In this document: positions 25,350 through 64,000 of the stretch, piece after piece
Position numbering within the stretch: the first letter of the stretch is position 1
Layout: each line of letters begins with the position of its first letter
DNA from: Lingula anatina
Lineage: Eukaryota > Animalia > Brachiopoda
Reading direction: 5' to 3'
Assembly: GCA_051362555.1 (NCBI GenBank)
Contig: CM120649.1
Coordinates: 19,978,567-20,042,566 of the forward strand
DNA: 64,000 nucleotides
Notes under the pieces: generated by a model
Database searches by the model: none
Told to the model about the DNA's origin: nothing
The model's input: the letters and a program-made list of their open reading frames with translations, nothing else
Made by a program: the position numbers and the translations under genes

Positions 25350-25401
<52 letters not shown>

Positions 25402-26133: not shown

Positions 26134-27909
26134 ATGAAGATTGCATTTACAGTTGTTTTCATTGGTAGGTAAGCGCGGTTTAAGACTGAATGGTCAATGC
26201 ATGTTGGTGCTGTGAACGCCGCGTACGTGATATTTTACTTTTAATTAAAATTGGAATATATTTTACTTTTAATTAATATTTGGAATATAAACATGTGGGC
26301 GATACTTTCCCATGTGCAGATAGGCTTTTTTTTACATATGTTTTACCAAGTTGAAACGTGGAACTTATTTAGGTGGTAACTTTCATATTTCTCTGCTTAC
26401 AGTCATGTATGCAGTCACTGCCTGCATGTGTGAGAATGAAAAGAGTAGCGTTCATTCACGTAAGAAGAGGAACGCTGTCCAGTTAGGCTGGATGATCTTC
26501 AGTCGCACCAGGAGGTCTGCCCTGGCTTATAACGGTTATGGTTGTTGGTGTGGTCTGGGTGGAAGAGGAACACCTAAAGACGGAGTGGACAGGTGAGAGA
26601 GAGAGAAAGAGAGAGAGACAGAACTGAAGAGGGGGGGGGGGGGCGAGTAAAGAGCAGACAGGGAAGTAAAATCTCAACACCCCCTCATCTAGATATCCTT
26701 GGTACACAAATATAAATTTGTTTAAAGAAATAAATAAAATCAAGTATAGACCACTGCGTTTCATGGAGTACGCCTTTTTTTGAGCCAAGAATTTTCCTAT
26801 TATGTCATTGCATAAAACATTGGACTAACCCTGACCCCCCCCCCCCCCCAAATCCGCACTGCTGAACTGCACTGACTGCCCAGTCCCATGTGTGATATAC
26901 ATATATATATTAACTGACCTCTGGTCATTTATTTCCAGCTGTTGTCTCGTCCATGACAGGTGCTACGGGCGGCTGACCAGAAGTGGATGTCCCAACCCTG
27001 TGCTGAATACCTATAGATACACGCTGCGCGGAGGAATTGTTTGCAGTAAGTACATGTAGGCCTACATAACGTCTCAGTGTCAGTGGTATACTGCCTTGGA
27101 ATTAAGTATTTGTCCTCAACTGCAATGATGATCACGAGAACGAAATGCGGTGATTAGGGAATACATGTTCGGAAATCGTGTTTATGACGTTATATTATGA
27201 CGTAACTAAGACTTTACGATTGCATGGCCACTGCAAAGATGAGTTTTTATATCGATAAACCTACACAAACCAATCTGTTATTTGTCTCGTAAACAGCTGG
27301 ACGTTTCTTGTAAATTATTAACAATCTCTGATCTCATTAGCACATTTCCTGGTTTTAGTTAAGGTCTGCAGGCAAACCTGCTCAGGTACTTAGTCGTGTC
27401 ACAGCTGTCAATCATAAACCAATGCGTACACGTCACATTCAATAAATGTGCCGCCTGAGACCACGTGACTACACACCTGCAGCGGGATGGCGTGGTAAAC
27501 ACACGGTCTAAGCATGATATTTAATGTATATAATACCAAACTGTTAAAACGCAAGAAGAACGCAGCGAAAAGCAAAGACGGAGACTAAAAGAAGTAGGAA
27601 CTAAAAGGTTGGAACGACCCACTGATAGAAATAAAGGACATCCAGAAAACTGAACTTCCATGATAGCCCTTTTGAAGGCTTATAACTGATAGCAATAGTA
27701 CTGTAGCATACACATTTTCTCATTGTATGGGTAAATGTATTATTTCAGATGTCAGCGAGTCTTTACGAGGTATGTTTTCTTTACTTGCAGATAGCAGAAG
27801 AAACGACGTGTGTGAGCAGATTGGCTGTGAATGTGACAGAGCACTTGCCTTTTGCTTTGCCCGGAACATTTATAACGTCCGCTACCGGAACTGGAGGGGG
27901 AGCTGTTAA
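26134..27909 (+). CDS. Secreted phospholipase A2, copy A (intact)
   Basis: Exons 26134-26164, 26403-26592, 26939-27045, 27791-27909, all GT-AG with phases 1/2/1. Signal peptide MKIAFTVVFIVMYAVTACMC, propeptide ending RKKR, Ca loop [22 protein letters not shown]; AATAAA at 28024. Confidence 0.95.
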
Positions 27910-29664
27910 ACGCTTCATGACGTCACACCACTTTTTAAAATTCTGACGTAACTATCTAAATTAATCAAAATGTTCTTGAATTATTTTTTAATGAGCAGTC
28001 TGAAAGATGTTCTATTAACTGCAAATAAAACAAGCATATCGGATGCCATTATCCATGCTTCGTATATACTTGTACCGTATTTATTGCTACACTTCTCCGT
28101 TTAATCCTGTATTCAATTATTGCTATATAAATTATATTGCGTCTGTAAACATGTCTTATTAGATAAAATTTTTTTGATGAAATCAGTAGTTTAAATGAAT
28201 AAAGGCATTCAATACAACTTCAGTCAAGTGAAGTAATCTTGTATTTTGATCTCAAAAAGTGACTTTTGAAATAAATGATGTTTTCCAGTTTATAAAGTAC
28301 CCCTAATGACGCAAACATGTTTGCCAATATTCATGCTAACATAGTACTAGATACCACAACTTTTATTTCGGTTCTTTAAGATACAGGTCCCTGACGAGGC
28401 AGGATTGTTTGTTACAGTTGTGATTTTCGAACAAATAGGTCCTAAAGAATTACATGGTTATACCACACTGAAAAAGGTCCTTAATTGGGTCAGTCTTAAT
28501 GCCCGTTTAAATGTCGCTCTACAACCTTTAAAATATCATTTGACTTCATTCAAAGTTCATGGCCTTGATAATACGCTAGTAGTGGCGTTTCTTGTTGATA
28601 GTTCATGCTGTGTCATCTGCAACATACGACCAATCTTAAAAGTTAATACCATGAATTTATTCAGTCATAAGTTATGGACATATGTCATTATAGTACGGTA
28701 CTGCCAGGATCCATCCATTATGTTCACATAGCCTAGATCTTGTTTACGTTTCCTGGTTTACTAATGGCAACAAAAATAATGATAATATAGATAACAAATG
28801 TATAAAGTAATAGGGACAAGGTCCGTTGAACTGAATATTGCGTGACTGTAAAACCTTACATTCAGGAAGTTGTACCGCGTTCCATTAATCAATGGCGACT
28901 TGCAGTTTACAATACTACACACACTGGACAATAAAAGTGTCACCCCCTGAATCAGAGTAATCAAAATTATTAACCTGAAGAGGCGGAATATTTAGCAATG
29001 TCAGAATATCGATACAGTTGAATTGTTCAGTCAGAACCGTTTATTTTGTGAAATTTGGTGTTAATAAAATAATATCAGGAGCATATCATTCCACAGTCAT
29101 TATCTCCCCCAAAGAATCAGTATGGGTGACACTTCTATTGTCCAGTGTGTGTACATAGAAATAACTATACAGACAAAATGTACTTACACGCACACACACA
29201 CACTTAAACAAACGCACACATACCCCCGTTAAAAGTTATTTTTAATCAACGGTCTGTTCTGTACGACGTGTATCTGGTAATAATAAAATAAATTCTGTGC
29301 TAACCGGTGGGTACCTGGGCGTTTGTAACAAAAGAGACGCAGCAGACTATGACACAGGGTCCTCTGGAAGTTTAACCACGTACTGGTACATACCAGTATC
29401 AGTAACCATTTCTCTGAAATACATTTCAAATAACAAATTACCTAGGCGAATTAAGACAGGGCAGTATTATCCCATACTGGAATACATTTAAAATGAAATA
29501 TTGTCAAGGAAATAACGTTTGAAACGCCGATTCACTCCTTTCAAGTTTCTGGTATAAATGTAGCGTCCTCACTGCAAGATAAAACAGACGAAAGTTCAGC
29601 TGAGCAGGAGTCATTCTCAAGACAGCCACTGTGAGCCAAGAAATCGTCTGTGTTGTAATCTAAG

Positions 29665-30000
29665 ATGAATACTGCAGTCCTGTTCATCGGTAAGTATACG
29701 GCCTTTGGTCTTAGGTCTTTTTTTAGCAAAAGGATCAAAAATAATCAGAGAAATGTCTTGAATAAATAGTGAATATATCAAAACGGAACGTTTTTTTTTC
29801 CAGTATTCTTTTAATTGCAGCTGCCTGTGCAGTCGCTGTCTGCACGTGTGAGGATGAAGCACATTCTCGCGAGAAGAGAAATGCCTTTCAGTTTGGCAGG
29901 ATGATCAGAAGTCGTACAGGAAGATCTGCCCTGGATTATAACGGTTATGGTTGTTGGTGTGGTCTGGGAGGAAGAGGGACACCTAAAGATGGAGTGGACA

Positions 30001-30036
<36 letters not shown>

Positions 30037-31832
30037 GAGAGATTGTCCTTCCGTCAGCGTGAAAAAGAACAAACATGTGGTAAGAAACAATCTAATTGCT
30101 TTCATGGTACATAAGACCATTCAAATGATAAAGAGTATTTTCTGATTTATCAGTAAGACTTGAATGCTTCATATTTGGAAATAGGTGTAAAGGACTTTAT
30201 CTGAGATCGCATACACTTTCCTAGGTTGAATTACTTAGATGTAGCTGATCTTGGGATAGAAAACCGAAAACACGACCAAATTACGTTTCATTGAGTATTT
30301 CTCACCGACAGTTTACCCTCTTTTACTTTAGAGTGTAGGCTTGGTTTCGTAAATATATATGCTATATAGTTTTTACTATCCAAAGCAGTTGCCGATAAGT
30401 AGAAGCAAAGACAAACTCATGGCAAGAAAATATCTACAACACTTGCATGCTCTCGAGTTCCAGTTTTCTTGTTTTGTGTGTTCATAATATTATGTAAGTT
30501 TTTCCTCGAGTAACATTTTGTACCTTTTGGGACTATGTCTTACATCACCAACAATGCACATTAAAATCGGGCCATTCAATAGGTCAGCAACTGGGTCATA
30601 TATTTTTTGTGCATATTTGGTTTGAAGAAAGCCAAGATACGCAGTTTCTTCGCAAACATATCATTGTCCTACCCTTTTTTTTTACAAATAAAATAAGACA
30701 AAATGCAAGGACTAACCTGTTGAATAACCTATTGAACGTTCATGTACTTCCGGTTTGAGAGATACCCCCTTCATCCTGTCACGTGCTAGTTGCACGTGCA
30801 CGTGTTGCCGATCCTAATCCTGTCCAGAGTTATTTTCTAGCGCTAACCCATACTCAATGCAAAGGCTAGGGCCTTGGATCCAGTATACTTGAATAAGACT
30901 ATATAATGTTCTAGTGGAATAAACACGAGGGAAAGTTATGCGTATGATACCTTTCGGTAAAAATTACCGATATGTGTCGGAGAATATTGTGGTACAATGT
31001 TAATCTGACACTGTTTGTGCTAGACTATACTGCATGTTTTGTACTAAAATATAACAGTTCATTGACCAGTACTTATCATTACAGATGCTGCCAGGCCCAT
31101 GACCGCTGTTACGATAGACTTATCAACAGTGGATGTCGTAATCCTGTGTTGAACGCCTACAGCTACACTCTAAGCGGAGGAATCGTTTGCAGTAAGTTCT
31201 AGTTACATCTTACAGTAGGAAATTCCTTCTAACCAAACACAGAATAATAGATCTGATTGATTAAGACATATCGCGTGAGAACACGGGATTACTAGATGAC
31301 GTAATTTTATAAATTGTGGGACGTACACTTGACGCTAGCAGGGCGTAGTGGTAGCAGTTCTACCATCTGAAATGGTCCCAGCATATCAGGAAGTGGCGTT
31401 TACAAAGAACGTAAAAGGCAGCTAGCTCGCCTTTTTTTTTTCAGTAACCATTTTCAGTAACCCATAGTATAGCACATGGCAATGGATTTTCCTCTCAGTG
31501 ATGGTAAAAGCCTACTTACTTGTGTCATCTACAGATAGGCCTACTGTGGTTCAGTCGTTCAAAGAAAGTTCTTGGCGAACCAAATGAACGCAATGGCTAT
31601 CCAATTTTACCAGTCAAGGCTAAAACCAAAATCTTAATTCATTTATATACACATCCAAGTAAACAAGGAATTGTTTTTATGCTACAAATGTGCTTATTCA
31701 TTTTCAATTACAGATCGCAGTAGAAATGACCGCTGTGAACAGGGAGGCTGTGAATGTGACAGAACAGCGGCGTATTGCTTCGCCAGGAACCGGTATAACA
31801 GTGTGTACAAGAACTGGAGAGGAAGCTGTTAG
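29665..31832 (+). CDS. Secreted phospholipase A2, copy B (intact)
   Basis: Exons 29665-29689, 29821-30001, 31085-31191, 31714-31832. TATAAA at 29553. MNTAVLFIAACAVAVCTC..REKR|[37 protein letters not shown]; AATAAA at 32101. Confidence 0.95.
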
Positions 31833-33599: not shown

Positions 33600-34890
33600 T
33601 ATGTTAACTGAACTCGTCACGATTTTACCCTGGGAGTAACTGAAACTGATAGACTTATCTGATGTCTTTTCAAAGAAATCACTGTAATAAAGTAGTAAAT
33701 TTTGTCACATTTCCAAGATAAATATAGACACAGAACAATGGTTCGTACGGGAGTGTAGAGATAAATCAGAGTGATAAAGACGTTTACTGTGTCTGTCACT
33801 CAAGCACTCATGCCTTTATAGTCTTCTTGATGCCTTAATTGCTTGTTCAACTGGCGCAGCTTTCAACGTATTTGCACAGACACAGGTAAATAACGGCCTC
33901 TCTCTCTCTCTCTCTCTCAGTTATGTATTTGTACTTATCGACACATCCAAGATATTATTAGGTGTTGATGGAGACATCGACCACCAAGTCGCTTAATTTA
34001 TTAAAAAGGTAATAATTAAAGTAATTGTGAAAGGATGGTGCTTCAATTGTCACAGTTCCTTCGGTGTGCCGTTGATTAATGAAAACATGGAAACTTCTTT
34101 CAACAGAAGTTGACCAAATCCTCTGACTATCGATCTCTTCGTTTAATTTAAATTTTATTACAGCCTTTATTTATTGTATTTTTAGATATACCAAGGACAA
34201 CAGTACTGTCGTACAGATAGCGTTTAATCATTGAAGAGCGATGAAGGTTGCCCCGATCTTTTTTATTGCAGGTAGGCATTGTTATATTAATTATCCAATA
34301 ACAGCATGTTTTACGTAGGCTTCAAGAATAAAGTCATACGATTCATTCGGACACAAAACGGCTCTTTGTTACATGCATGGGCAGATGCACTCTGTATGAA
34401 GAATTAGTCTGATTTTTCAGTCGTTTACGTTGTTAAGGGATATCTGTGTTGGTTTTTATATCAGAATTACAGATATGATTTGTAATATGCAATTGTTGAC
34501 TATGGGTGAGGTTGCCTCGCGGTTATTTTCGATCCGATCCTGGAATAATTGACCGCAGCTGAAGAAAAAAATCCATAGTCACTTTTCTGGCTAAAATCTT
34601 TGATACTAACCTTACTGCGTTGTGTTACACTAACAGGCCGCGTCTGGTAGTTGGGTAGGCCTGACTAAGATTCTTAAAATTCCGCTTTTCCAGAGGGAAT
34701 CTATTCTGTGTCTATCAGCGCATTAGATGGCAAGCTTTGTAGTGGATCGCCATAATTGACCCGCGGACTAGTTAGTCCACTATTCTGAATGCGGCTACAA
34801 AGCTCAACTAAAATTCAGTAAATGGGAGCACAATCAACAATTATTTCAAAAATACGTACTTTTATCAAGCCATTGTGTTTTAACGTTCAT
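33600..34890 (+). pseudogene. sPLA2 copy C: orphan promoter, non-coding exon and signal-peptide exon only
   Basis: Non-coding exon donor at 33886, acceptor at 34185, ATG exon 34241-34271 (MKVAPIFFIA, GTAGG donor). Homologous to the 5' ends of F, H and I. No exon 2 was found before the next duplicated block starts at 36373. Confidence 0.75.
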
Positions 34891-37660: not shown

Positions 37661-37703
<43 letters not shown>

Positions 37704-38282: not shown

Positions 38283-38328
<46 letters not shown>

Positions 38329-41572: not shown

Positions 41573-42067
41573 TATGGCGACTTGCAGTTTACAAGACTAC
41601 AGAGAAACAACTATACAGGCCAAACGAACAAACACACACATACTTTTGTTAACAGGTATTTAAATCAACAGTCTGTTCTGTACGACGTGTAACTGGTAAT
41701 GATATAATAAATTCTATGTTAACCGGTGGGTACCTGGGCGTTTGTAACAAAAGAGACAGCTGACTATGACACTGGGTCCTCTGGAAGTTTTACCACGTAG
41801 TATCAGTCAGTATCAGTAACCATTTCTCTAAAATACATTTCAAATAACAAATTACCTAGGCGAATTAAGACAAAGCAGTATTATCCCATACTGGAATAGA
41901 TTTAAAATGAAATATTGTCAAGGAAATAACTTTTGAAACTCCGATTCACACCTTTCAAGTTTCTGGTATAAATGCACCGTCCTCAGTGCAAGCTAAAACA
42001 GACGAAAGTTCAGCTGAGCAGGAGTCATTCACTGTGAGCCCAGAAATCTTCTGTGTTGTAATCTAAG

Positions 42068-49008: not shown

Positions 49009-52000
49009 ATGAAGACGTCCCTGATCTTGTTTATTGCGGGTAAGTTAATTTTATATTAAACAAATAGTTTCCTATTAACGGGGTAATACGAATAGTTGAG
49101 GAATAAAGTCATATGATCCATGTCGGACACAATACGGCACATTTTATGGACATATGCAGATACATTGTGTATGAAGAAGTATCCTTCATGTGCATTACCT
49201 GCATCTGCCGTTGCCGCTACAGGCAGTTGTCTGATACCTTTACTTGTTAACCTTTTAAAAGAATATTCCAGTTTTTTTTTTCACACTTACAGGAATTATT
49301 CGGAATAAACAATTTTTGACTTTGGATAAGATAACCTCGAGGCTATATTTGATGCGAAGCTGGGATATTTGACAGTTTTCTGTCTAAAATATTTTTTACT
49401 ACGTTGTGTTTAACAAATATTTCTAAAGGCCGCTCACCATTTACATTAGAAGCTTTTCAACATCAACTACTTTTTGCTTCCTCGGAAGCCGCCTAAACTC
49501 AAAGTTAGTCAGCAAAGCTCAGCTAATACTCGATAATTGAGAGCATAATCAACAAAATTTTTCTTTTTTCAAGACATTGTGTTTTAAACGAAATTTAGTG
49601 AATTAAAATAAATAAATGTGTTCCCTTTTTTACATATTTAATAAAAACAAAACGGAATAAAAGCAGTTTTTCAAACATAAACTTTTATAAAACATTGTAC
49701 CCACTTCAGGTAAAAATGCCATTTTTTCAACTATGAATGTCTCTACTCAGGCCATGCGGTTAGAAAAGTGGAGAGTCCAATTTGCTATACTTCATGCACT
49801 AATAGCTATCATCAAATTATTTAGCTCCTAATCGTTACTTTTTTAATTGCAGCTGCATACGCAGTCACCGCCTGCATGTGCGAGGATAACGTGCATTCTC
49901 GCGAGAAGAGAAATGCTTTTCAGTTCCGCAAAATGATAAAGGATCGCACTGTTATATAGCCGTTATGGTTGTTGGTGTGGTGTGGGAGGGAGAGGAAAAC
50001 CAAAGGACGGAGTAGACAGGTGAATATATATGATGAAAATATTATATTAATTTTAGAATAAGGAGTTCCTCACTTTGCAAGAAATATAGCGCAGTCTCTG
50101 ACTGATCAGTATTTTATTATTAGACTGCTTCGTATTTGACTTATAATAACTTGGTGTATCAGTAAGAACAAAAAGGAGAACAATTAGATTCATAGTAATT
50201 CGTTTTGCCGTCAAATAAAAGCTTTGTTAAACGCGTTTTGATGAGTCCATGGAAAGTTTCCAAGCAAACCAATAGAAGGTTCCATCTAGAGATGGAACAG
50301 CAATTACGGTCTTTCTAAAATATCTAAACACCATACGTTCAGTAATGTTTGCAAGTATGATTACCCGGAACGTATGGACGAATACGTTTATAACTTAAAC
50401 AATTCAGGAAAAAATAGTCCCAAGCGTAAGTGCGAAGAGTAGCAAGCTGGGCTCGATCTCCACTTTTTAACCACGTATGTCACAAACACAAGAAGCAGGT
50501 ATTGGGGGGGGGGGGGTAGTTTTTTCCTGAATGAGCAACCCCCCCCCCCCCCACACACACACTTAACATGGGCTTCCAACGTATACGCACCTATTTAATG
50601 GCTGACAGCGGGGTTTTGCAGTCCAAGTCAACCCCAAAACTTTTATATTCTTGTGCAACAGGCTGAAGAGCCATTGGTGACTATTTGGAAACAACAGATT
50701 TTTGCGTGGGGCTAAAGCATGTCCCTTGTTTGTTTGCGTCGTGCAATATGGACATAACACTGCTTGAAATGCACTAAACAATATATTTTACAATACACAT
50801 TGAACAATACGTATTATTACAGATGCTGCCGCTCCCATGACTACTGCTACGATAGACTTAGAGACAATGGTTGTTACCCAGTGATTAGCAAATACACCTA
50901 CAGTCTGAGCAGTGGAATTGTTTGTGGTAAGTTCCATACCTGGTTAAAATCTTGATTTAAATCTCTCATAAGTTATTGTCTTGTCTACTTGTATTGTACT
51001 CTTTTGTGTTGTGTCATATTTTGTTGTATTGTATTGTGTTGTTGTTTTTTATGTTGTAATGTTGTATATATTGTGTTGTATTATACTGTGTTGCATTAAT
51101 GTGTACTGTATCGTATTGTATTACATTGCGTGGTATTGCATTGAGTCGCGTTGTGTCGCATTGTATGGTATTATGTCGTATTGTATTGCCTTGTCTTGTA
51201 TTAAATTATATTGTTTTTTTTATTGTTGAACAGTTTCATTAGAAAAGTCCGTGTTGGAAATGACCATAAAGTTTCATTTGTCAATAGCTTTAAAAATATT
51301 AAGTGACATTTACCAGCCAAAATTTCATCTGCTGACAGTCAGATTCATCAGGGAAATGAAATCCGTGATAGGTATTACCACCTGTCACCCCTCAGGTGTG
51401 CTGTTTAGTCAGGTGCCCCCTCCTCTTATAATGTGTTGTGTTAAATAGTATTGTATTGTGTTGTATCGATTGTACTGGGGTATTGATCTGAGTTATATTG
51501 CACTGTTCGGTTCTGTTTTTTTGTATTGTGTTTTACTGTCTGGTTTTGAATATTGCAGTGTTTTGTATTTTGTTGCGTTGTGTCCTGTTGTTTTGTATTG
51601 TATTGTTTTGTGTTGTACTGTATAGTATTGTTTATATAGTTTACCTAGAAAAATACATCTCTATACTGGCAAGAATATTTTGACGGGGAATACATATATA
51701 TAACGCTTACAGAGAAAAATGCGTTTTTTATCCTTTAATGTTATGCTTCACAGATAATGTGAAATTCATCTTACCTCGTTTATTTTTGTAGCTGTTAACT
51801 TTGCTCATAGCTTATATTTGAATTTGAGGCAATAATTACCCATATAGGTATGTCATTAGATTTCATTGTGGGCCAGTCGAGCCAAAGTCCTATAACACTT
51901 CAACCAATATTGCAAAATCACCTGTACGAAATATGCTATTAGGGGTATAACCTAAGAAAACCCTAAGACGTTTTAACTTTTAGACACAGGCTCTGGTACT

Positions 52001-52177
52001 TACCAGGGGATTGCCATAGACTCGGGCTGTACTCTTTTATTTTCAATTGCAGATAGCAGTGAAAATAACAGCTGTCAACAGGGGGCATGTGAATGCGACA
52101 GAACAGCGGCGTATTGCTTCGCTAGCAACACCTTTCACAAGAAATACATCAGCTGGCCTAATTTCCTCTGTAGATGA
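49009..52177 (+). pseudogene. sPLA2 copy F: frameshifted pseudogene
   Basis: Exons 49009-49039, 49853-50019, 50823-50926, 52053-52177. Exon 2 is 167 nt against 181 nt in B/E/H (14-nt deletion), giving an in-frame TAG at 49957-49959. Exons 3-4 are open with HD and CECD intact. Confidence 0.88.
50980..51640. repeat. Degenerate (TATTG/TGTTG)n pentamer tracts in intron 3 of F; shorter tract in intron 3 of H (60062-60108)
   Basis: Read directly from the sequence. Confidence 0.8.
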
Positions 52178-53138
52178 TTGCCCAACACTCGTCGGCAGAT
52201 CAGTATATAACCGGACCGGACTAGCATAGACCACCATTGAAAGTCTCATTCATATTTGAAATATCAATGTAAACGTAAAATAGATCTAATTTTAATTCAC
52301 ACTTTTTGACATATCCTTTGAAAATATAATGCTTGCAATTTGAAATAGGGAAACGAAGTAAACAGAGAAAAGAAACTACTTGAGAATTTCTGTTATATTG
52401 CGAATATATTTAAATAAAGTGTTCTGATCAACTTGTTTGCCGTGATTGAGGAGTCGAGAATTTTAGAATTTCCCCATGCAGTTATGCAGAATCACAAAAG
52501 TAAATAGTAAGATGCAGCTCATAAATAGTAGGCCTATAACACTGCAGTAGTCCTCAAAAAGTTGCAATATCCGAAGTAAAGATGTATAGCAAACGAGAAT
52601 ATACATGTAGTTGTTTAAGTTTATGATACCACACAGGGGATATGCTTTACTAAAATGTTATTACATCGATATATTTCATTTTTCACTGCTGATAGAAAAC
52701 ACATAAATCAACAACGTAGTGTTCTTCAAAAATATTCTTTAAAAATCATCATTTAGTTGTACACATCGTTTTCAGTGTCATTCTACAGAATCAGTAGCTG
52801 GCCAATATTATGTGCAATGTAACGCTAAACTTGTGGCAAGTAATTCTGCTTTGGGATAGTTAATTCGTTGCTGGAGTCGTTCATTTATGCATGTGCTCCC
52901 AAATCAAAGACTCGTGTTAGAAAACGGCAATTATCGTTTATGAATCCTGTACGACCGAGTACTCGTTTACCTCCAAATCCGCAAAAAAACTCAGTAACTT
53001 GCCATGTGCTTTGATAAACGTATTTTAACTACCCCAATAGGTGGCAGTCAGTAAAGACACAGCTAAGTAAATGTTGTGCATTAGCAGCGCACTTTGACAA
53101 AGAGACTAATCTGAGTCAGCGCCGAGTTTCAATTCAAG

Positions 53139-53491
53139 ATGAATACTGGGATTTTATTCCTATTTATCGGTACGTTTACAACTTATAAACCACTGTTTTG
53201 GTCACTGGGTAGTTGCAGCGAAAAGAAAGAAGACCAAATTTTATGCACCGGCCGTATACTTTATGTATAAAAGTGTATTGTTTTGTACACATTTCTCTAT
53301 TTGCAGCTGCATGCACAATCATTGCCTGCATGTGTGGGAATGATGTGCTTTCTCGCAAGAAAAGAATTAAATTTCGTTCAGTTTGGGTTTATGATCGCGA
53401 ATCGCACAGGAAGATCTCCCCTGGATTATAACGGTTACGGCTGCTGGTGTGGTAAGGGAGGAAAGGGTTTACCCAAGGACGGAGTGGACAG
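53139..53491 (+). pseudogene. sPLA2 copy G: frameshifted and 3'-truncated remnant
   Basis: Exons 53139-53169 and 53307-53491. Exon 2 is 185 nt because of a 4-nt insertion right after RKKR. No exon 3 or 4 was found before the promoter of H. Confidence 0.85.
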
Positions 53492-56347
53492 GTGAGAGAG
53501 AGAGAGAGAAAAAGAGAGAGAGAGAGGAACGTGGGCGAGAGAGAGAAAAGACACGACTTTATCTGTCGTCGGCGTAACACAGCATAAAGGTATCGATAAG
53601 AAATGTTACTTTAAAGGTGCATGGGGCCATTAAATGAAAAAGCGTATTTTGTGATTGATCCATATTTAATGACTTGGTAGTATCATATTTACAATTAGAT
53701 GTAAAGGGGCTTAATTTGAGATCGCATACACTCTACTAATTAAAACATATGCAGGCAGTGACTTACAATTAGTGGTCTGGAAAACAATGTGTTATAAATT
53801 GAAGATGACATTAGGGATAAAAAGTACAGCGTTGATCACGTGATCAGCCAATTATGATGGAGTGAAAAAATATGTGCATATACAGGTATATAAAATGTTC
53901 AACCACTATTTTATTTGAGCTACGTGTTTTCATTGAAGTTACTTACTGATAAAATTAATGTGACCTGAATTTATGCCACGCTTAAGCATATGCGGCTGTA
54001 AAACATTGAAGTTCCAGCTTTCTGTTGGAGGTTTAAAATGGCGACGGATATTGAATAATTAAACACTGCAAACCACGGCATATCAAACAGTTTTCTGGAG
54101 ATCGCGTTTATGTTCAGTGTTTTTATCGCAGCTTATACACTAAATAGGCATCTGGCGACAATTGCAGTGCATTATCAATGAATGAAATGTGAAGTTTAAT
54201 TCATGATAAAAATGCAGTCAAAATTAGTTTCACTTTTTGTTTCCCTGCTGTTCACCCGGATGTTTGCTTTAAAGAATAAGCCCGATTATAGGAAGACCTT
54301 TTGCTACTATTCACAGCTGTTGTCATAGACAAGGAAAGCATAATAAAAGATGCCACTTGAAAATAATAGATAATTTTGTACAAAAAACGCCCAGCAAATT
54401 TTGTGTTTGGGTGACCAATCCCCATGTCATTTTGTGTTTAAATCTAGGACCAAGCCTGTACGGTCTAGCAAAAAAAGTTAATTAATAGACTTATAGAAAA
54501 TTAAAAAAAGGAAATTAAAAAACCTTCAAACGTATGTCATTCCAAAGTATTCCAAATTTGTTTTGTTAAATGGATTTTTAAGGCTAATGCGGAATGAATG
54601 AACATAATTCTGATAATGATGTACTTTGTATATAATTATCGGAACTAATGGTCACGTACAAGTCACGTAAAGGACCCTGTCTATGTGTCAGAGTGACCAC
54701 ATTACATCTGGAGGAAATACTCAAGAACTACTAATCCAGTATAAAAACAGATTTGAATACCGTATTTGAATAACAGATGTGAAAACATTACTTTTTTTAT
54801 GAACATAAAGTTGTAATTACTATTTAATGAAGAATAATGATGAAAAAAAAAAAAAAACATTTACAAACAGAGTGGGTACGCGTCAGAAGTGTTACACCAT
54901 GTGTCTCATTTTCAAATCATTATAATAGCAAGCTTATCATTCATTACAACTGCCATCCGCCCTCCTGTCATTTCGCATATCACGCACGACAGAGAATCGG
55001 GATGGCCTCGTTTTCACTTTGGAATAAAAACCGCGATTTTATTTCTAAGTGGGTCCAAATGACCAGAAGGCCAAAACGACATCAAGAATGCTTCAGATGA
55101 ACTTTTACAACGGGGTTTAATGCCGATATTAAGGTCATGATTTGGAAAGATAAAAAACTTGTGGCCATTTTGAGATGTTCGCAGAATACATGTAACATCC
55201 ACCCACAGTGGTCACCTCTCAAAGCTTTTATTTCAAAAGATCTGAGAATTAAACCTGTCTCAAGTTTAACTGAAATAATATGCTTGAATGAAATCCATAA
55301 AAACTCCAAAAACCATATCATTGTTACCTTTACATTTATCGATGTGAGTGACCTTTTAGTAATAACATTTACTTAAATTTACTTGAACGCTTACTTTCCT
55401 ATGTTTAAAGCCTACTGCTCAAAATTAAATGTGACGTAATATATGAAAATAATGACATCCTGGTATTTGGAAAAGAAAATACCCATTGTTTGGCCCATAT
55501 CAGCTCATTTTCATAACTGCCCAAGGAACATACAGGGTATATACAGGTATAGGCCTACATTTCGACCACGTTTGTTCATGTAAATCCTATTCACCACTAA
55601 TTACACCCAGGGTTGACAGGAACATTAATACTTGAGTATTTAGACGAAAATGCACGTTTTTCCCCGCGAAACAATTTTCAAGGAAATAGTTGACTTGCTA
55701 ATCTTTCCAAGAAACGGTAAAATATATACACATAACAGAGACCCATGGAAATGAAAATGGCGGACTAGAGATGTCTCCTGTCCAAAATAAACTTCCCATC
55801 GAACAATTTGTTAAAGAAGGTGAGAAGATACAGGGGTATGTCCACCATGTAGCCCAACGTACTCTTTAATGGACTTACACACTCAATTTGGTATCCTCAG
55901 GTTTTTCTGGGGAAACTTAAATATGATACAGTAATCTGTGACAAAGATGAAATTTTGCATTCTGTCAAAAAAAGCCATTTTAATTACCCATATCACCACA
56001 ATTACACAACGCCCAAAAGAAAGTGTATAAGGAAACATTTCTTCACTGCTTGTTCACGTAAACCTTATTTATCTTTAATTAGATCTAAGGTTGACAGGAA
56101 TATCGAAACTAAACTCACGTCTTTCTCGCGAAATTCAAAAGGAAATACATGTAGTTAACTTACTAATCTTTCCACGAAACGGTAAAAATATACACAATAC
56201 AATGAGGACCATAAAAATGAAAGTGGCAGAGATGTCTCCTATCTATCCTCATTATACACTCTTGCCTTATATATTCTGCGCAGTAGTCGACTATCTTGTC
56301 TATTCGGCTGGCGCACCTTTCCACGGCATTGAAACGGGTAAATAACG

Positions 56348-56383
<36 letters not shown>

Positions 56384-56692
56384 GTTATGTATTTATATAG
56401 GCAGTGGCACACGTTATATATAATAACGGGGTGTCAACTTTTCAATCTCTTTTCTCTCTTTCGCTCTCGGTTATGTATTTCTTATTAGCGGCAGATCTAA
56501 AATATCATTGCACGCGCGCGCGTGTGGATGGGTAGGGGTTGTCATGTCCAGTAATTTAAAAAAGTGATAAACTAAATATGGTAACAACCATGTATAATGG
56601 TTCTTCTGTTATTGCAGCCTTATTCTTTATGTTTTCAGATTTACCAGAGACGATATCGGAAGAAGTAAAAGCATAAACGGATACTTTGAAAT

Positions 56693-59600
56693 ATGATGAA
56701 GACCACCTTGATCTTGTTTATACTGGGTAGGTACATGTATGGGGTTTCTTCTCAATCAGACATTCATTTTTCAATGACAGTGTAAGACAATTACTTGAAG
56801 TACGTGGGGTGTGGAATAAAGTCACTGAACACAAACCTTTTAAGGAGAAGCATGCTGTGAATGGACTTATATGGCCTTTTCCTACATCGACTACATCTTC
56901 TCTTGTCGTGCATTTTCGCTAACCTAATAGGAAATTTCTACTGATTATTTTCGAAAATACACAGATGGTTCATGTGCCTCCAACTTGAGTTCGAAAACAG
57001 CATTAGTTAAGTTGCTTTTCGTAAAATTATGTTGGTATTGTCCAGGTGTGAAATTAAATTTTCATTGTCGTGAAGTCTTTCGGTAGTTATATTTCCTTAA
57101 TGCCCACAGTGACAGTGGCAAATCATCAAAATTGATGGTGACAATGGTATTAAATATTATGTAACAATGCACCTAAATTGACCAAAAGCGTAATCAGTGC
57201 ACATTCATCATTAATTAAACTGATAAAATGAAAACCGAGTAAGCGTGTTACCTATTATTTTTTGTTACCGATTTCACTTTGGTGTGTGTGTGTGGATTTT
57301 TTTCACAAATTGTATTTTTTTGTGTGTGTGATTTTGAAATTCCGATACTGTTTTGTGCTAGTTTAAGCCACAAAAAGTAAGAAAACCAAGTTTTTTGTGT
57401 CATTTGTACTGCCGCTAACATTGCCCTCCTCCTGGATGCTGCAATGTTGGTACTCAGTTAGAATGGCACGTTGCCTATACTGTGTCAAACAATGCTACTT
57501 GTTAAAGTACAATGCAGGGGCGGATATAGGCCGTCTTCTGGGTCTTCCAGAAGACGGTCAGCTTTTCAAGTTTTCATTGATGGGTATCCAATTTTTTTCT
57601 GTTGGAAGACGGTCAAAAATGGAGTCTTGATCAACAAAGATAATTTGGAAGACTGTCAGAAAATATCTCTGGATCCGCCCCTGCAATGTTTACATCCGCC
57701 AATTTCTCCACTACACTTAGACTAAGGCCACACTTTTTTAATTTTATGGATGACATCCTGCGCGCGCACCGATTTTCGTCCGTTCTCCAAAAAAAAAAAA
57801 AAAAAATCCCCCCCCCCAAACCGCTCCCCCCCCCCCCCCCCGAGGAAGTTGGTTGTCGCAAACATCGTTATTGAATTTGCAGGAAAATGCAATCGGCAAT
57901 TCTCGGCTAATTCCGCAAGCTCTTAAGAGATTTTAACAAAAAACCAAACTTTTTAGAAAAAAAACAGGGACTAACTTTGAATGTAAAAATGGATTCATAA
58001 CCATTGGTAAGTATGGGAAAATTGTTGTTTACTCCAGGAAAATTCATTTTTTGGCCGAAACGAAGAGTTATTATTGCTTTAATTTCAAAATACACGACAA
58101 TTAAAGTCATAAAGAGAACGGGGGCCGTCTTTTTGGATTGGTTTGCCATTGATATTGGACATGGAGATATCACCCTTTTACAATTATGCGAAAGGCTGGC
58201 CGCGGCCAGCAATCATCGCCCGAAAAATTTCAGTGACATTCTGTCCAGAGCAGCACATACCAGTTTCTTTTTGGAGCAAAAAAAGGGTCGACAAGAGCGT
58301 CGTGGTATTTGGTGGACTGAAGGTCGGACAGGCCACCCGATAGTTGGCTGCTAGCGTTTGAGTCGAAGTAGACAAAATGGCATCGACCGAAATTACCTTA
58401 GTAGTAGGAAGCATAGGCCTATCTTTGCTTCATTTTTTTAACAATTCTGTGAAGTGTTTACAATGCTTTAATTTTCTGAGAGTACAAATTAAGACACGCT
58501 GTTTATTTGATATTTGTTTTATTGGATGCTATACCAACAGAATGCATGAAATAACCTTAAATAGATTTGGTATTTGGTGCAGCATATATATTCATGACTT
58601 TTTACCTTTCTACGAAATAGGCCCTATTCACAAAGCTTTAATATTTTGAGAGCATGGATAAAGACATGTTGTTAGTTTGATACGTGTTTCTCTGGTAAAT
58701 TAGTGTTTCCAGCTGTGTACTGAAAACATAACTTTTCTTAAGCAGTTTTTTTTTTTTCGGACTGTTTTTTTTTTTTTTTTTCGCCCGCTCGCACCTACTT
58801 TGGGGTCCCCAGAGGATGTCATCCATAAAAATAAAAAAGTGTGGCCTAACTAGCACAATTATAAACCACAGAAGCAGACCAACACTCCAATTACAGAGTA
58901 CAAGTCTATCAGAAAGCAGGATCAGAGTTAGGATACTCATTTTTATGAAGAAGATTACGTTATGTTTTTATGTTATGAAAAATGCACATTTCAAATCTTA
59001 CCAGTGTAATCTGTATGTCGTTATTATGAAAACATTCTTTATCTTCCGTGTACTGGTAGGTTTAGGGTAAAAGGAGAAAGAAACAAAAATTCTATGCATC
59101 TATACATGTAGTATACAATAGATCATTAAACTTCATGTCTCATACATATTTCTTCCTTTGCAGCTGCGTGCGCAGTCATTGCCTGTGTGTGCGAGGATAA
59201 CGTGCATTCTCGCGAGAAGAGGAATTTCTTTCAGTTTGGCAGGATGATCAAGAGTCGTACAGGAAGATCTGCCCTGGCTTATAACGGTTATGGTTGTTGG
59301 TGTGGTCTGGGAGGAAAAGGAACACCTAAAGACGGAGTGGACAGGTAAAATATGATGAAATATATGATGGTTATTTTAAACATAAAGAGTTCCCATGTTT
59401 TTTTTTCTTGACTGCGCCATAAAGTGTATACATGACTGACCAATAGAGACGATGGCAACTATTTTTGGACCATTGATTGACAATCTTAACTGTCTGAGAT
59501 TCTACCTGTAGTGACAGTCCTTTCACCAAGATCGCACACAAATAAAATATTTTAAATTCTATAACCGTACACAGTATTAAACGTGTGCAATCAGTTTTAT

Positions 59601-60701
59601 ATGTTAGTACCGATGCCGCATATCGAAAGAGATATTTGGCCAAGAACATTCACCCGTGGACGCCGTTAAAACATCGTTAACAGTGTAATACATGTATAAC
59701 TTACATAACATCATATAATGATACGCCTTGAGCAAAAAAAGTGAAGAATCCACTGTGAATGACAACTACTATAGCGCGGGACCATGCCATATTCGTCTTT
59801 TTTGCGGTTTTGCGGTTTTGACATTGCACTGCTTGTAACTGCAGTATACAGTTTATCTTTCAATATACATAGACCAAATCTAATCATTACAGATGCTGTC
59901 GCGCCCATGACTACTGTTACGATAGACTTATCAAAAGCGGATGTCGCAGTCCAGTGTGGAACACCTACAGATACACTCTGCGCTGGGGAATATATTGTTG
60001 TAAGTTCCATACATACGACTTCCTACTAATCAAAAACAGAATAAGGTCCCGATTAAAAACCGTATTGTATTGTATTGTATTGTATTGTTTTGTATTGTAT
60101 TGTATTGTAGGGCGTGGCCTGTTGACACGATATTTTTTAAATCTCAGTTATGCATATACTGTTAAACCTCGTATAGCAAAAAAAAAAAAAAGCTTAATGT
60201 TGGAAAAGTATTTCCACGAGGAATATAACGCTTACCGAAAAATATATTCGACTGTCGAGTTACGTTTCACAGATATTTTCAAATGCATCCTACCTCTTCC
60301 ATAGAAGCTTTTAACTTTGTTCCTAACGTTCCCTAGCGTGACAAAAATTACCCATTTGTGTATGTCCACAACATTGATCCTGAGTCAGTCTTTGGTAGGA
60401 ACTATATAACTGCTTAGACCAATATCGCGAAATCATTTGTACGTAGTGCCTATGCTATCCCGTTTTAGAGGTCTAAGAAAAAAGTCTAAGAAAAAGTTTT
60501 AAAAATTTATGACGCAGACCCCAGTACTTTTCGTGCAAATAAGGCTTTGCCATCGGCTCAACTCTGGTATTTCCAATTACAGATCGCCGAGGAAATGACC
60601 GCTGTGAACTGGGAGGGTGTAAATGTGACAGAACAGCGGCGTATTGCTTCGCCAGGAACACCTACCACAATAAGTACAAGAACTGGAAAGGAAGCTGTTA
60701 G
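56693..60701 (+). CDS. Secreted phospholipase A2, copy H (intact, most cationic)
   Basis: Exons 56693-56726, 59164-59344, 59893-59999, 60583-60701; upstream non-coding exon ends at 56337. REKR|[29 protein letters not shown]; AATAAA at 61190. Confidence 0.94.
57515..57683. mobile_element. hAT-type MITE in the first coding intron of H
   Basis: TIR CAGGGGCGGAT / ATCCGCCCCTG with a 5-bp CAATG duplication. Confidence 0.65.
57726..58846. mobile_element. Harbinger-like non-autonomous element with a nested Kolobok-like fragment
   Basis: TIR GGCCACACTTTTTTA.TTTTATGGATGACATCCT at both ends with TAA TSD. Contains the 8783-family fragment at ~57920-58082. Confidence 0.75.
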
Positions 60702-60757
60702 ATGATTGGCCACGTCTCTGGTTACTCTACATCTGGGCATTTACCTTGAATGTCTAA

Positions 60758-61016
60758 GGCTTCGTTCACATGGAATGTCTATTTTCTAAATTCTATTTTC
60801 TATTCGCGGTATGTCTTATGATCACGGTCTGTGCCCTGAATATCCCGCGGCGTAATTACTGGCAGCGCGAGCCAGTTACTTATAGTAACTTCTGGTAACT
60901 GGCTCGCGCTGCCAGTAATTACGCCGCGGGATATTCAGGGCACAGACTGTGATCATAAGATACCGCGAATAGAAAATAGATTTTTAGAAAATAGACTTTC
61001 CATGTTGAACGAAGCC
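60758..61016. mobile_element. Fold-back palindromic MITE in the 3'UTR of copy H
   Basis: Arms of ~120 bp are near-perfect reverse complements (GGCTTCGTTCA...GCGCGAGCCAGTTAC / GTAACTGGCTCGCGC...TGAACGAAGCC) with TAA/TTA flanks. Confidence 0.85.
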
Positions 61017-61716
61017 TTACTCAATCTGAAAATAGACTTGAAAAGAACACAATTTAAAATATCCCATTTACGGTATATAGTGTTTATGTATACTCTAATT
61101 TTGTGGTATAAATTATATTAAAATATATCCTGCTGAAATGTCACGAACCATTTGAAATGGAATTTTGGATAGAGTAATGAAGCAATTTTAATAAACTTCT
61201 CAGAGCAACTTCACTTTTATGCATCTTTAATTTCGCCCAAGAAAGTAATTGACTAGGATTTCAACATTATTTCTCCCGATTTTAGTTCGGGGTGTGGGGT
61301 GGGCGGGAGAAGTGGGGTACATTTATTGGACTCTTTCAATTCTGCGTTATTTGTATGTCACGCACTGCGCCATGGTAGCCGTTAGTCTACTCGGAGACAA
61401 GGATTTTCTCGTTTGCTTATGTCTCTAACTCATCTACGAAGTGCATCTCTGTATGACTACTATTTTAGGACGTACTTGTTGTTTTTCTCGCGAAATCAAT
61501 CTAAAGGAAACAGTAAACCCAGTATTTTTACCAAGAAACAGTAAATATAGGCACAGAACAATGGGGCCCATGGACGTGTAGAGATCAACCAAGGAGATAG
61601 GAGATGTCTCAGGTGTCTGTCCATCATGTTCTCGTGGCTTTATGTACTCTGTACAGTCTATAGCAAACTGTTCAGCTGGCGCACCTTGCCGAAGACACGG
61701 GTAAATTACGAGGTCA

Positions 61717-62224: not shown

Positions 62225-63878
62225 ATGAAGACCACTCTAATCTTGATTATTGCAGGTAGGCATTTTTTAAAACAAATATGACGTTTTGTTTGCTACAATT
62301 GATGTCATAGCGCAAAACATATACAAGGAACTTTCCTGTGCTATGGCTACCATCAGTTCATTGTTTTCTTTGGTATGGGACTATATCCCGCGACTAGTGT
62401 TCAATCATAGAACGTTAGGATATAATAGAACATTTAAATATTGTCCAATGTTATATAAGTAAACTCAGTGTCACTACACCGAATGTTACCCGACAGGGCT
62501 AGCCTACGTTTTTAAAGATATGTTAGTATAACATAAAATCCGCTACCGATTTCCAGGTGCGTGGACCTGCACGTGCACAAATATCGCTCTTTCTCGCGCG
62601 AAGAGGGACTATAGCCAACTTGCCGCAATGATAGCCCACACGACGGGAAGAGCTGGCTTAGATTATTACGGCTATGGCTGCTGGTGCGGGCTGGTAGGCA
62701 GGGGGCAGCCGAAAGACGGAGTGGACAGGTATGGTGAAGTTTATTATAGGCACACGTTTGTGGACAGGTACGATGGATTTCCATTAATAGTATAAGTTTG
62801 TACCCGCATGGTGTGACTGTCAAATTCGCAGAGCAGAAAATAACACAACTCAAGGGAATAGCCCTTTTTTAATGTACTTCCTTGTCTAACTCTAAGGTGC
62901 TATGCAGGTTGCATTCATTCTTTCGTTGAAAAATAAACCTGCTATTTTTTCAATAATAAATAAACCTTGCCTGGATGGCCCGCTTGTGGCCCGTACCACA
63001 AGTGTGTGTGTATGACTGTGTTTATAATATATCACTGTCCACTTGCAGGTGTTGTCAAACGTTAGCCAGGTGCTACGAGGCCCTGTCCAGGAAATGGTGT
63101 CTTCTACCTATTTGGCAAGCCTACAACTTTCACCTGAAGACTGGGATCGTGTGCGGTATGTTGACTTACTTGTCTCTTAAAGTTTACCGGTACAAACTTA
63201 TGTCTACTCCGTCTTACAGGGTTGAAGCAACCTCTACCAAGAAAACGATTTTAGCGGAGGCAACTTTTTAAACCCATTAAATCATCACAAAGATGCGTGG
63301 CATCACGAAAAGCTGCCCTCGCAACGAGTATTGCTCTAGAATCGAAAAGCAGTCCTGAATGCACGTGTTGACACCATAAGTTGCCATTATATACAAAGCA
63401 ACTCTGAATGGATTCTACCACTTCATGTATGCGTCCTCCTTGAATCATCGCTTCTTGACGTCTGGATAGATTCTCTTCACTGATACTTCCTATACGACAA
63501 TAGATAGATATATGATAGATAGGTAGATAGATAGACAGACAGACAGACAGATAGATAGATAGATAGATAGATGGCACATGGCAGGATAGTTAAATGGTCC
63601 ATGTAGTTTCTCAGTAGTGAGATGCCAAGCATACGTTTATGTGCATATCCAGTCTGCGAACACCTATAGGTTTGAAAACTCCTTCTTTGGAAATGATCAT
63701 CAAAAAGGAAAACATAAAATATTGTGTTTGATTAATACATATATGTTTTTTTATTTCAGACGGCAACAAAAACAATCGCTGTGAACAAGGAGCCTGTGAA
63801 TGCGACAAGGCAGCAGCTGATTGCGCCGCTCGGCACACCTACCACAACCAGTACAAGAACTGGATGGGGATTTGTTAA
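62225..63878 (+). CDS. sPLA2-like protein, copy I: intact ORF, catalytic residues lost (H48L, D49A, G32V)
   Basis: Exons 62225-62255, 62557-62728, 63049-63155, 63760-63878 splice in frame. RAKR|DYSQLAAMI..YGCWCGLVG..CCQTLARCY..CECD..NWMGIC; all 12 mature Cys retained. Confidence 0.92.
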
Positions 63879-64000
63879 AATTAATACAGAATGTTCTTGT
63901 CATCTTTGTTTAAAATAGAAATGGAATAATTTGTTGTAATTTCCCATAGTTTCAACGCTTCATATTGATGTAACTCCATATTTCTTTATGATTGTATGAA

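What the first reader, a model, noticed from the sequence alone, without database searches (positions are those of the whole stretch)
62225..63878. Intact but catalytically dead sPLA2 (H48L, D49A, G32V) at the end of an array of active paralogs
Seen: CCQTLARCY replaces CCxxHDxCY (codons TTA GCC at 63062-63067; CAT->TTA differs at all three bases). The Ca2+-loop Gly32 is Val (62694-62696), Phe106 is Ala and the mature N-terminus is Asp. Yet all four exons splice in frame, and the signal peptide, RAKR site, all 12 Cys, Tyr52, Tyr73 and Asp99 are kept, whereas neighbours F and G died by frameshift. Hand-counted net charge is about +3, against +7 to +15 for the active copies. Known: His48 and Asp49 are essential for catalysis and Ca2+ binding; inactive sPLA2 folds have been repurposed as Lys49 myotoxins, chaperone/inhibitor subunits (vipoxin, crotoxin), otoconins and PLA2G12B (His->Leu). 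Inference: a secreted pseudo-enzyme under purifying selection, possibly a partner, inhibitor or targeting subunit for the cationic enzymes encoded beside it, or a non-enzymatic effector or matrix protein.
Basis: partly seen in the sequence, partly recalled or inferred. Interest (0 to 1): 0.88.

Follow-up and report, generated by a model that had tools for sequence, protein, structure and literature searches.

The report
Disarmed phospholipase A2 in a brachiopod
A lamp-shell (Lingula) gene in a cluster of secreted phospholipases has lost its catalytic and calcium-binding residues but keeps an open reading frame and all its cysteines, so it likely makes a folded, non-cutting protein that is likely kept by selection as a lipid binder, a kind of reuse already known from snake venoms and vertebrates.

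Summary
Gene I (62225-63878) is an intact four-exon, 142-aa sPLA2 of Lingula anatina with His48Leu, Asp49Ala, Gly32Val and Phe106Ala. A second assembly has the same dead motif (XP_013393807.1). Of 31 columns conserved in 122 homologs, I changes 5, all at the active site or lipid channel, and no cysteine. A model that keeps the fold beats pure decay by about 12-14 log units. Coding variants lean synonymous (6 of 9 shown), and the predicted fold is a normal sPLA2. So a constrained pseudoenzyme is likely (about 0.8).

Corrections: I is not the end of the array. F is intact in the other assembly. Low charge is not special to I, as intact paralog J is +1. RNA is sparse (17 reads in one run; exons seen in 2 of 4 runs). 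Nine reads splice exon 3 in frame to exon 2 of paralog J, more than use exon 4.

A vipoxin-like partner or otoconin-like matrix role fits poorly: I is not acidic, and the shell-proteome PLA2s match its neighbours. No cross-species ortholog was found. It is a new, independent case of a known kind.

The parts
62225..62255 (+). Gene I exon 1 (first 10 codons of the signal peptide, phase-1 donor)
   Evidence: matches the P0001 N-terminus; no RNA read on it in 4 runs
62557..62728 (+). Gene I exon 2: end of signal peptide, propeptide, N-terminal helix, Ca2+ loop
   Evidence: PF00068 E 4.7e-9; sparse RNA in X11 and X17
62595..62606 (+). R-A-K-R predicted convertase site before the mature chain (R-V-K-R in the other assembly)
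   Evidence: sequence; cleavage is inferred
62694..62696 (+). Gly32Val in the Ca2+-binding loop
   Evidence: Gly in 119 of 122 homologs, Val in 0
63049..63155 (+). Gene I exon 3: active-site helix and beta-wing; its donor is spliced to exon 2 of paralog J in 9 reads
63062..63067 (+). His48Leu and Asp49Ala codons (TTA GCC)
   Evidence: His and Asp in 122 of 122 homologs
63760..63878 (+). Gene I exon 4: helix 3, Asp99 (63804-63806), Phe106Ala (63825-63827), stop
   Evidence: about 3 RNA reads in X17
63879..64000 (+). 3' UTR, covered by oligo-dT RNA; an AATAAA appears to begin at the window's last bases
   Evidence: tables 2 and 7 (contigs of X3 and X9 read on past the end); none inside the window
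56696..60701 (+). Paralog H, intact His-Asp, net +15 (exons 56696-56726, 59164-59344, 59893-59999, 60583-60701)
   Evidence: = P0002
53139..53491 (+). Paralog G, fragment: exon 1 and an out-of-frame exon 2, no exon 3 or 4 found
49009..52177 (+). Paralog F, exon 2 out of frame in this haplotype; intact allele annotated in another assembly
   Evidence: P0011
38794..47279 (+). Paralogs D (38794-40357) and E (42068-47279), intact; recent duplicate of the A-B pair
34241..34271 (+). Lone exon 1 (remnant C) with upstream likeness to F's upstream region
26134..31832 (+). Paralogs A (26134-27909) and B (29665-31832), intact His-Asp
   Evidence: = P0012 and P0010

Best explanation
Gene I is an intact four-exon secreted phospholipase A2 paralog of the brachiopod Lingula anatina that has lost His48, Asp49, Gly32 and Phe106 but kept all 12 cysteines, so it is predicted to fold without cutting lipids or binding calcium, and it is likely kept by selection as a non-catalytic lipid- or membrane-binding modulator, likely secreted in the gut beside its active paralogs. 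Shown: the gene structure, the substitutions, a second intact allele, low-level transcription. Inferred steps: (1) a duplicate in a Lingula-specific sPLA2 array lost catalysis long ago; (2) selection kept the signal peptide, R-x-K-R site, disulfide frame and the Tyr52/Tyr73/Asp99 core; (3) the polar catalytic centre became a non-polar pocket (Leu48, Ala49, Val32, Ala106) and the N-terminal helix lost its positive charge, which would suit binding a lipid or fatty acid, or occupying a lipid surface, rather than attacking anionic membranes; (4) the tissue is taken from family-level data only. Odds: constrained pseudoenzyme of any role about 0.8; this role about 0.45.
For: Of 31 columns at least 80% conserved in 122 homologs, I differs at 5 (F5L, G32V, H48L, D49A, F106A), all active-site or channel positions; the 26 others are kept. 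Chance of such clustering is 0.0007, or 0.01 with F5L left out and the first hit given free (site classes chosen by me, in part from recall). A per-codon model in which the fold stays constrained beats all-neutral decay by lnLR 11.9-14.3 in 6 of 6 settings, best fit about 0.5 substitutions per site since the loss. Coding variants among haplotypes: 6 synonymous, 3 non-synonymous among the rows shown (P 0.004-0.016), and 0 of 12 indel rows shown are coding. Window against the other assembly: 3 of 115 mature residues differ, within the 0-5 of A, B and H; about 10-11 expected if neutral, P 0.004-0.014. AlphaFold2 mean pLDDT 85.5, with mature-chain blocks at 89-98; Foldseek rmsd 1.6 A over 116 columns to bovine pancreatic PLA2. 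RNA on exons 2-4 in 2 of 4 runs, at about the level of intact H. Net charge of residues 1-16 is 0, against +2 to +4 in the five intact window paralogs. The Lingula PLA2 family is expanded and highly expressed in digestive cecum (PMC4595640 Suppl. Table 14).
Against: No protein evidence. RNA is very sparse: 17 reads in 11.05 million records in X17, none on gene I in X14 and X15, none on exon 1. No exon 2-3 or exon 3-4 joint reached the 3-read threshold, while 9 reads join exon 3 to paralog J. Only 40 of 181 substitution rows and 12 of 34 indel rows were shown; adding the two further amino-acid changes of P0001 weakens the test to 6 of 11 (P 0.016-0.051). Against the five active paralogs alone, invariant sites are not significantly better kept than variable ones (20 of 68 against 22 of 47 changed, P 0.076). 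I has the longest branch in the Lingula group (0.70 against 0.49 for J). No ortholog outside L. anatina, so no between-species dN/dS. Homologs were collected by shared words, which favours His-Asp sequences. The fold prediction leans on active homologs. Lipid binding and tissue were not tested.
Confidence: 0.45

Rival explanations
1. A slowly decaying or merely relaxed duplicate: catalysis was lost, the gene is still leakily transcribed, and it has not yet been hit by a stop or frameshift.
For: The array turns over fast: F is null in one haplotype, G and C are fragments, D-E is a recent duplicate. I has the longest branch. RNA is sparse and mostly skips exon 4. The invariant-versus-variable test is not significant.
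Against: At least 7 base changes at four functional codons with none at 22 fold positions; lnLR 12-14 against neutral decay. Synonymous excess and few amino-acid differences between haplotypes. Intact in both assemblies. Intact H is equally sparse in the same runs.
Confidence: 0.17
2. A partner, inhibitor or targeting subunit that forms a heterodimer with an active cationic paralog, as vipoxin's acidic chain does.
For: Precedent: the vipoxin acidic chain lacks His48 and shields and modulates the basic chain (PMC13414281 passages). I is less cationic than H by 12 charges, lies in the same array and is seen in the same two runs as H exon 3.
Against: I is net +3 (pI 8.3), not acidic, so it lacks charge complementarity with +7 to +15 partners. 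J, to which it is linked by RNA, is +1.
Confidence: 0.15
3. Gene I is kept mainly as a promoter and leader for paralog J. Read-through splicing gives an in-frame precursor of about 241 aa, from which the R-P-K-R site would release active J.
For: 9 X17 reads leave exon 3 exactly at donor 63155; their letters, read by hand in I's frame, give AFGACFLYIS, residues 11-20 of P0013. Both junctions are phase 1. Exon 3 depth (about 6.7) exceeds exon 4 depth (about 2.5) in an oligo-dT library. A 240-aa shell-proteome model matches an F exon 1-3 plus H exon 2-4 join on all six listed numbers.
Against: One run only. Second-to-last exon joined to second exon is the usual pattern of read-through between neighbours (PMC4450057 passages). 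Exon 4, which the fusion skips, keeps its 5 Cys and Asp99, which a leader role does not explain. The fused piece of I lacks helix 3 and would carry unpaired cysteines (inference).
Confidence: 0.1
4. An otoconin-like matrix protein of the calcium-phosphate shell.
For: Two adjacent PLA2 models are in the Lingula shell proteome, one unique peptide each (PMC4595640 Suppl. Table 25). PLA2-like proteins occur in Nautilus and limpet shell (PMC8700984; best hit a scorpion PLA2, so probably another group). Inactive sPLA2 folds are otolith matrix proteins.
Against: By length, mass, pI and composition the two entries match F+H (1 of 30 pairings) and B with a 15-aa deletion (1 of 6 proteins), not I. The PF08398 hit listed for entry 09129 is found in F and J but not in I. 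Otoconins are very acidic and bind Ca2+; I is basic and lacks Asp49 and Gly32. Neither entry is marked mantle-specific.
Confidence: 0.08
5. A non-enzymatic membrane-disrupting or antimicrobial effector like the Lys49 myotoxins.
For: Shares the loss of Asp49 and a bulky residue at position 32 with viper PLA2-like proteins (PMC10893444 passages).
Against: Those keep His48 and depend on a cationic-aromatic C-terminus; I has less charge there (+2 against +3 or +4) and overall than its active paralogs. Lingula is not known to be venomous (recalled).
Confidence: 0.05

Closest known systems
Group I/II/V/X secreted PLA2 (Pfam PF00068)
   Same: PF00068 at 103.7 bits against a cut-off of 32.1; same three-helix fold; signal peptide, basic propeptide, Ca-loop outline, Tyr52, Tyr73, Asp99.
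   Different: Lacks His48, Asp49, Gly32 and Phe106; 12 Cys; short C-terminus.
Vipoxin acidic chain (VAC)
   Same: sPLA2 fold without His48, alongside an active basic homolog; described as a pseudoenzyme modulator at lipid interfaces (PMC13414281).
   Different: VAC has Gln48 and is acidic; I has Leu48 and Ala49, net +3; no partner shown.
Lys49-type PLA2-like viper myotoxins
   Same: Asp49 lost, Ca loop altered with a bulky residue at 32 or 33 (PMC10893444).
   Different: They keep His48 and Asp99 and have a cationic C-terminal region; I lost His48 and lost charge.
Otoconin-90 / otoconin-22
   Same: Catalytically dead sPLA2 domains; the host also builds a biomineral (PMC3105080).
   Different: Otoconins are very acidic and Ca-binding; the long multi-domain hits that I take for otoconin-90 (label recalled) keep His48 with Arg49. 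I is basic and is not matched by the shell-proteome entries.
PLA2G12B
   Same: Inactive sPLA2 used for lipid handling (PMC10920679); His-to-Leu change (recalled, not in the passages read).
   Different: Group XII, vertebrate-only, ER-retained, keeps an essential Ca-binding site; I is group I/II-like and has lost the Ca site.
Read-through (cis-spliced) transcripts of adjacent genes
   Same: Same strand, second-to-last exon joined to second exon (PMC4450057).
   Different: Here the two genes are paralogs and the join is in frame by shared intron phase.

Membership tests
Group I/II/V/X sPLA2 fold (PF00068) | Pfam score above the gathering cut-off | tested here: met
   103.7 bits against 32.1
Group I/II/V/X sPLA2 fold (PF00068) | Three-helix, disulfide-rich fold with beta-wing | tested here: met
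   predicted model pLDDT 85.5; rmsd 1.2-2.6 A to the solved sPLA2s listed; 12 Cys kept
Active sPLA2 enzymes | His48/Asp99 dyad | tested here: not met
   Leu48; Asp99 kept
Active sPLA2 enzymes | Ca2+ ligands: Asp49, Gly30 and Gly32 loop | tested here: not met
   Ala49, Val32; Gly30 kept
Active sPLA2 enzymes | Measured phospholipid hydrolysis | not testable with these tools
   needs an assay
Vipoxin/crotoxin-type partner subunit | Catalytic His48 lost | tested here: met
   VAC has Gln48
Vipoxin/crotoxin-type partner subunit | Acidic chain complementary to a basic enzyme | tested here: not met
   net +3, pI 8.3
Vipoxin/crotoxin-type partner subunit | Stable heterodimer with an active sPLA2 | not tested
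   no binding data or model of a pair
Lys49-type PLA2-like myotoxin | Asp49 replaced, His48 kept | tested here: not met
   both lost
Lys49-type PLA2-like myotoxin | Cationic-aromatic C-terminal region | tested here: not met
   net +2 in residues 100-115, below the active paralogs
Otoconin-like matrix protein | Very acidic, Ca-binding | tested here: not met
   7% Asp+Glu, pI 8.3-8.8
Otoconin-like matrix protein | Present in the biomineral matrix | tested here: inconclusive
   published entries match F+H and B by composition, not I; raw spectra not searched
PLA2G12B | Group XII sequence, retained Ca site, ER retention | tested here: not met
   PF00068 only; Ca ligands lost; features
Pseudogene | Disrupted frame, splice sites or neutral evolution | tested here: not met
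   intact in two assemblies; non-neutral pattern; within-species data only

The most novel reading that the evidence does not exclude
A brachiopod has independently turned an sPLA2 into a fully disarmed, calcium-independent lipid carrier or regulator, and the same locus doubles as a regulated leader: in-frame read-through splicing makes a pseudoenzyme-enzyme precursor whose convertase site releases active paralog J, so one dead gene controls both delivery and activity of a digestive or defensive lipase.
Probability: 0.12. Interest if true: 0.75.

Novelty: new variant of a known kind. Interest (0 to 1): 0.5.

Why it matters
Dead sPLA2 folds have been reused several times in vertebrates (venom subunits, Lys49 myotoxins, otoconins, PLA2G12B). 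This would be an independent case in a lophotrochozoan, more completely stripped than those, since both catalytic His and both Ca2+ elements are gone, and it sits beside live, null and fragmentary paralogs that act as natural controls. It makes a small, testable model for how a pseudoenzyme arises in a birth-and-death array and whether read-through splicing between paralogs is noise or a route to new proteins. Five literature searches found nothing on it. It is not a new kind of system, and its role is untested.

Tried and rejected
Assembly error at the active site: rejected. No whole genome is held for this window, so J and the DNA past 64000 could not be read. The run index listed no RNA holder, which is no evidence on expression; I laid 4 of 9 raw-read RNA runs and 3 of 10 DNA holders. 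The first lay was swamped by repeats in H's intron and at 60755-61019. The 30 letters behind the exon-3 donor are not in the window at up to 3 mismatches; they were then identified with J. Pairwise dN/dS of I against paralogs is unusable: pS 0.70-0.81, saturated. The tree does not resolve I's sister (Lingula group 89/96, open; 37 rows, of which 25 outgroups picked by me). The idea that shell proteins 09129 or 09130 are I or the I-J fusion was tested by composition and rejected. No ortholog among 941 hits in the 50% library; the best 150 were examined. The ESM Atlas gave only ordinary PLA2 clusters. No model of I with a paralog is available, so the partner question stays open. PMC13121700: 'phospholipase' occurs 0 times in the main text, and 4 terms had 0 hits in the 3 supplementary files held; its larger data tables may hold expression values I could not see. 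Earlier findings of the scan: none.

Full report
Observation. The stretch 62225-63878 holds a four-exon gene with GT-AG introns that splices to 142 codons without a stop. Its active-site helix reads CCQTLARCY; the codons at 63062-63067 are TTA GCC, where all five intact paralogs in the window have CAT GAC, and 62694-62696 is Val where they have Gly. Twelve Cys, Tyr52, Tyr73 and Asp99 are kept, Phe106 is Ala, and the mature chain is net +3. Numbering follows the standard sPLA2 scheme (His48, Asp49, Gly30, Gly32, Tyr52 and Asp99 as in PMC10893444, passages read; Phe5, Tyr73 and Phe106 recalled).

Source and a second allele. Exon 2 retrieved one protein, P0001 = XP_013393807.1 of Lingula anatina, automatically named 'A2-actitoxin-like'. 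It has the same dead motif and Val32 and differs at 4 other residues, so the substitutions are not an assembly error. In RNA run X17 the only two T>A places are 63109 and 63911, so the His codon is not present there either. For DNA runs X3, X9 and X10 no row at these codons is shown, but only 40 of 181 rows were printed.

The array. The window has intact A, B, D, E and H, a lone exon 1 (C), F with exon 2 out of frame and the fragment G. The other assembly has A, B, H, I, an intact F (P0011) and a further paralog J (P0013) with intact His-Asp that is not in the window. So F is not a fixed pseudogene, I is not the last gene, and His-Asp paralogs range from +1 to +15. I is 51-57% identical to its neighbours with saturated synonymous sites. 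In a tree it falls in an unresolved Lingula group on the longest branch, 0.70.

Is the loss selective? Among 122 homologs (from; four near-duplicates left out; one search listed the best 120 of 205), 31 columns are at least 80% conserved. I differs at five: F5L, G32V, H48L, D49A, F106A. Val32, Leu48 and Ala49 occur in 0 of 122. All five are active-site or channel positions. Chance of that clustering is 0.0007, or 0.01 with F5L left out and the first hit given free; the site classes are my choice. A simple per-codon model sets the multiple base changes at His48, Gly32 and Phe106 against the absence of any change at 22 fold positions, any stop, frameshift or splice loss. Keeping the fold constrained beats all-neutral decay by 11.9-14.3 log units in all six settings, with a best fit of about 0.5 substitutions per site since the loss. 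The model is rough and assumes independent single-base changes. A weaker test gave less: against the five window paralogs, I changes 20 of 68 invariant and 22 of 47 variable sites (P 0.076).

Variation within the species. Nine of the 40 rows shown are coding: 6 synonymous, 3 non-synonymous (P 0.004-0.016 against neutrality for kappa 1-4). Counting the two further P0001 changes gives 6 of 11 (P 0.016-0.051). None of 12 indel rows shown (of 34) is coding; contigs of X9 and X10 across exons 2-3 have gaps that were not all listed. Between assemblies I differs at 3 of 115 mature residues, against 0 for B, 2 for A and 5 for H; about 10-11 would be expected at 3.8-4.5% neutral divergence, a figure taken from X3 and X9 (P 0.004-0.014). 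No ortholog from another species was found, so there is no between-species test.

Expression. Four of nine raw-read RNA runs were laid (3 studies, tissues unknown). Exons 2-4 of I have reads in X11 and X17 and none in X14 and X15; intact H is as sparse. In X17, 17 reads of 11.05 million records lie on the gene: depth about 6.7 on exon 3, about 2.5 on exon 4 and the 3' UTR, none on exon 1, and no joint reached three reads. Nine reads leave exon 3 exactly at the donor, 63155. Their next 30 letters are absent from the window and, read by hand in I's frame, give AFGACFLYIS, residues 11-20 of J. [quoted passage not shown] It would encode about 241 aa: signal, propeptide, 76 residues of dead I, then J behind its own R-P-K-R site. 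That J lies just downstream is inferred. One run cannot say whether this is regulated or noise, and it does not explain why exon 4 keeps its cysteines and Asp99.

Structure. AlphaFold2 with an 82-row alignment gives mean pLDDT 85.5, mature-chain blocks 89-98, with three long helices and a beta-wing; the best Foldseek match is bovine pancreatic PLA2 at 1.6 A over 116 columns. The model borrows from active homologs and says nothing on function. From the sequence, the polar centre is replaced by Leu, Ala, Val and Ala, and residues 1-16 are neutral against +2 to +4 in the active window paralogs; J is +1 there. That suggests a non-polar pocket and weaker attraction to anionic membranes (inference). 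No model of a pair is available.

What is in print. PMC4595640 (main-text passages, supplement parts 6 and 9 and search rows) reports 21 PF00068 genes in Lingula, a 12-copy PLA2 family highly expressed in digestive cecum (not shown to include this array), and two adjacent PLA2 models in the shell proteome with one peptide each. Model 09129 (240 aa, 27 kDa, pI 9.2, Ala 6, Gly 11, acidic 9%) is matched on all six numbers by F exons 1-3 plus H exons 2-4, 1 of 30 pairings. Model 09130 (128 aa) is matched by B with a 15-residue deletion and by no deletion of I or the four others. These are composition matches, not sequence matches, but they point to the neighbours rather than to I. PMC13121700 has no hit in main text or three supplementary files. 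Searches found no paper on an inactive brachiopod sPLA2; subscription papers are not covered.

Comparison. I belongs to the PF00068 fold but fails the tests for an active enzyme. It works, if at all, like the dead sPLA2s already known but is a member of none. The vipoxin acidic chain has Gln48 and is acidic (PMC13414281, passages). Lys49 myotoxins keep His48 and a cationic tail. Otoconins are very acidic and bind calcium (PMC3105080, passages). PLA2G12B keeps its calcium site and is vertebrate-only (PMC10920679, passages). Loss of the motif is not unique: 22 of 268 other motif sites in the proteins fetched lack His-Asp, 4 lack His48 and 3 lack both.

Verdict. A real, intact, likely constrained pseudoenzyme (about 0.8). 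My best guess at its work is non-catalytic lipid or membrane binding in the gut (0.45), ahead of slow decay (0.17), partner subunit (0.15), leader for J (0.10), shell matrix (0.08) and membrane toxin (0.05).

Noticed in passing
window 63155 (exon 3 donor of gene I): Nine RNA reads of run X17 splice in frame into exon 2 of paralog J (P0013), which is not in the window; more reads than use exon 4.
   Followed up: partly
window 49009-52177 (gene F): Out of frame here but intact in the other assembly (P0011): a null allele that appears to segregate, or an assembly difference.
   Followed up: partly
window 29665-31832, 49009-60701 (B, F, H): The two PLA2 entries of the published Lingula shell proteome (09129, 09130; one peptide each) match an F+H joined model and a shortened B by length, mass, pI and composition, so cationic sPLA2s of this array may be in the shell matrix.
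   Followed up: partly
window 23864-32145 and 36369-47609: Tandem duplication of about 12.6 kb (84-89% identity) that made D-E from A-B; no D or E protein came up for the other assembly, so copy number may vary. E has 13 mature changes against B with few synonymous ones (dN/dS 0.65) and an intron 3 about 3.8 kb longer.
   Followed up: partly
window 34241-34271: A lone sPLA2 exon 1 whose upstream kilobase resembles that of F (72%); no further exons found before 38790.
   Followed up: partly
window 22121-22615, minus strand: Exon with a WW domain start and a weak TEAD-interaction hit: likely the YAP/Yorkie gene, diverging from the array (name inferred).
   Followed up: partly
window 60755-61019 and 57500-59000: A 265-bp palindrome between H and I, and repeats in H intron 1, draw hundreds of RNA reads that run on into unrelated sequence: likely abundant transposon-derived repeats.
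   Followed up: no
proteins P0186, P0206, P0238, P0131: Unnamed homologs that also lack His48, three of them Asp49 too (Leu-Gly or Gln-Gly): other doubly dead sPLA2s exist; sources unknown.
   Followed up: no
P0012 (gene A allele of the other assembly): Has Arg in place of Trp28 in the Ca loop.
   Followed up: no
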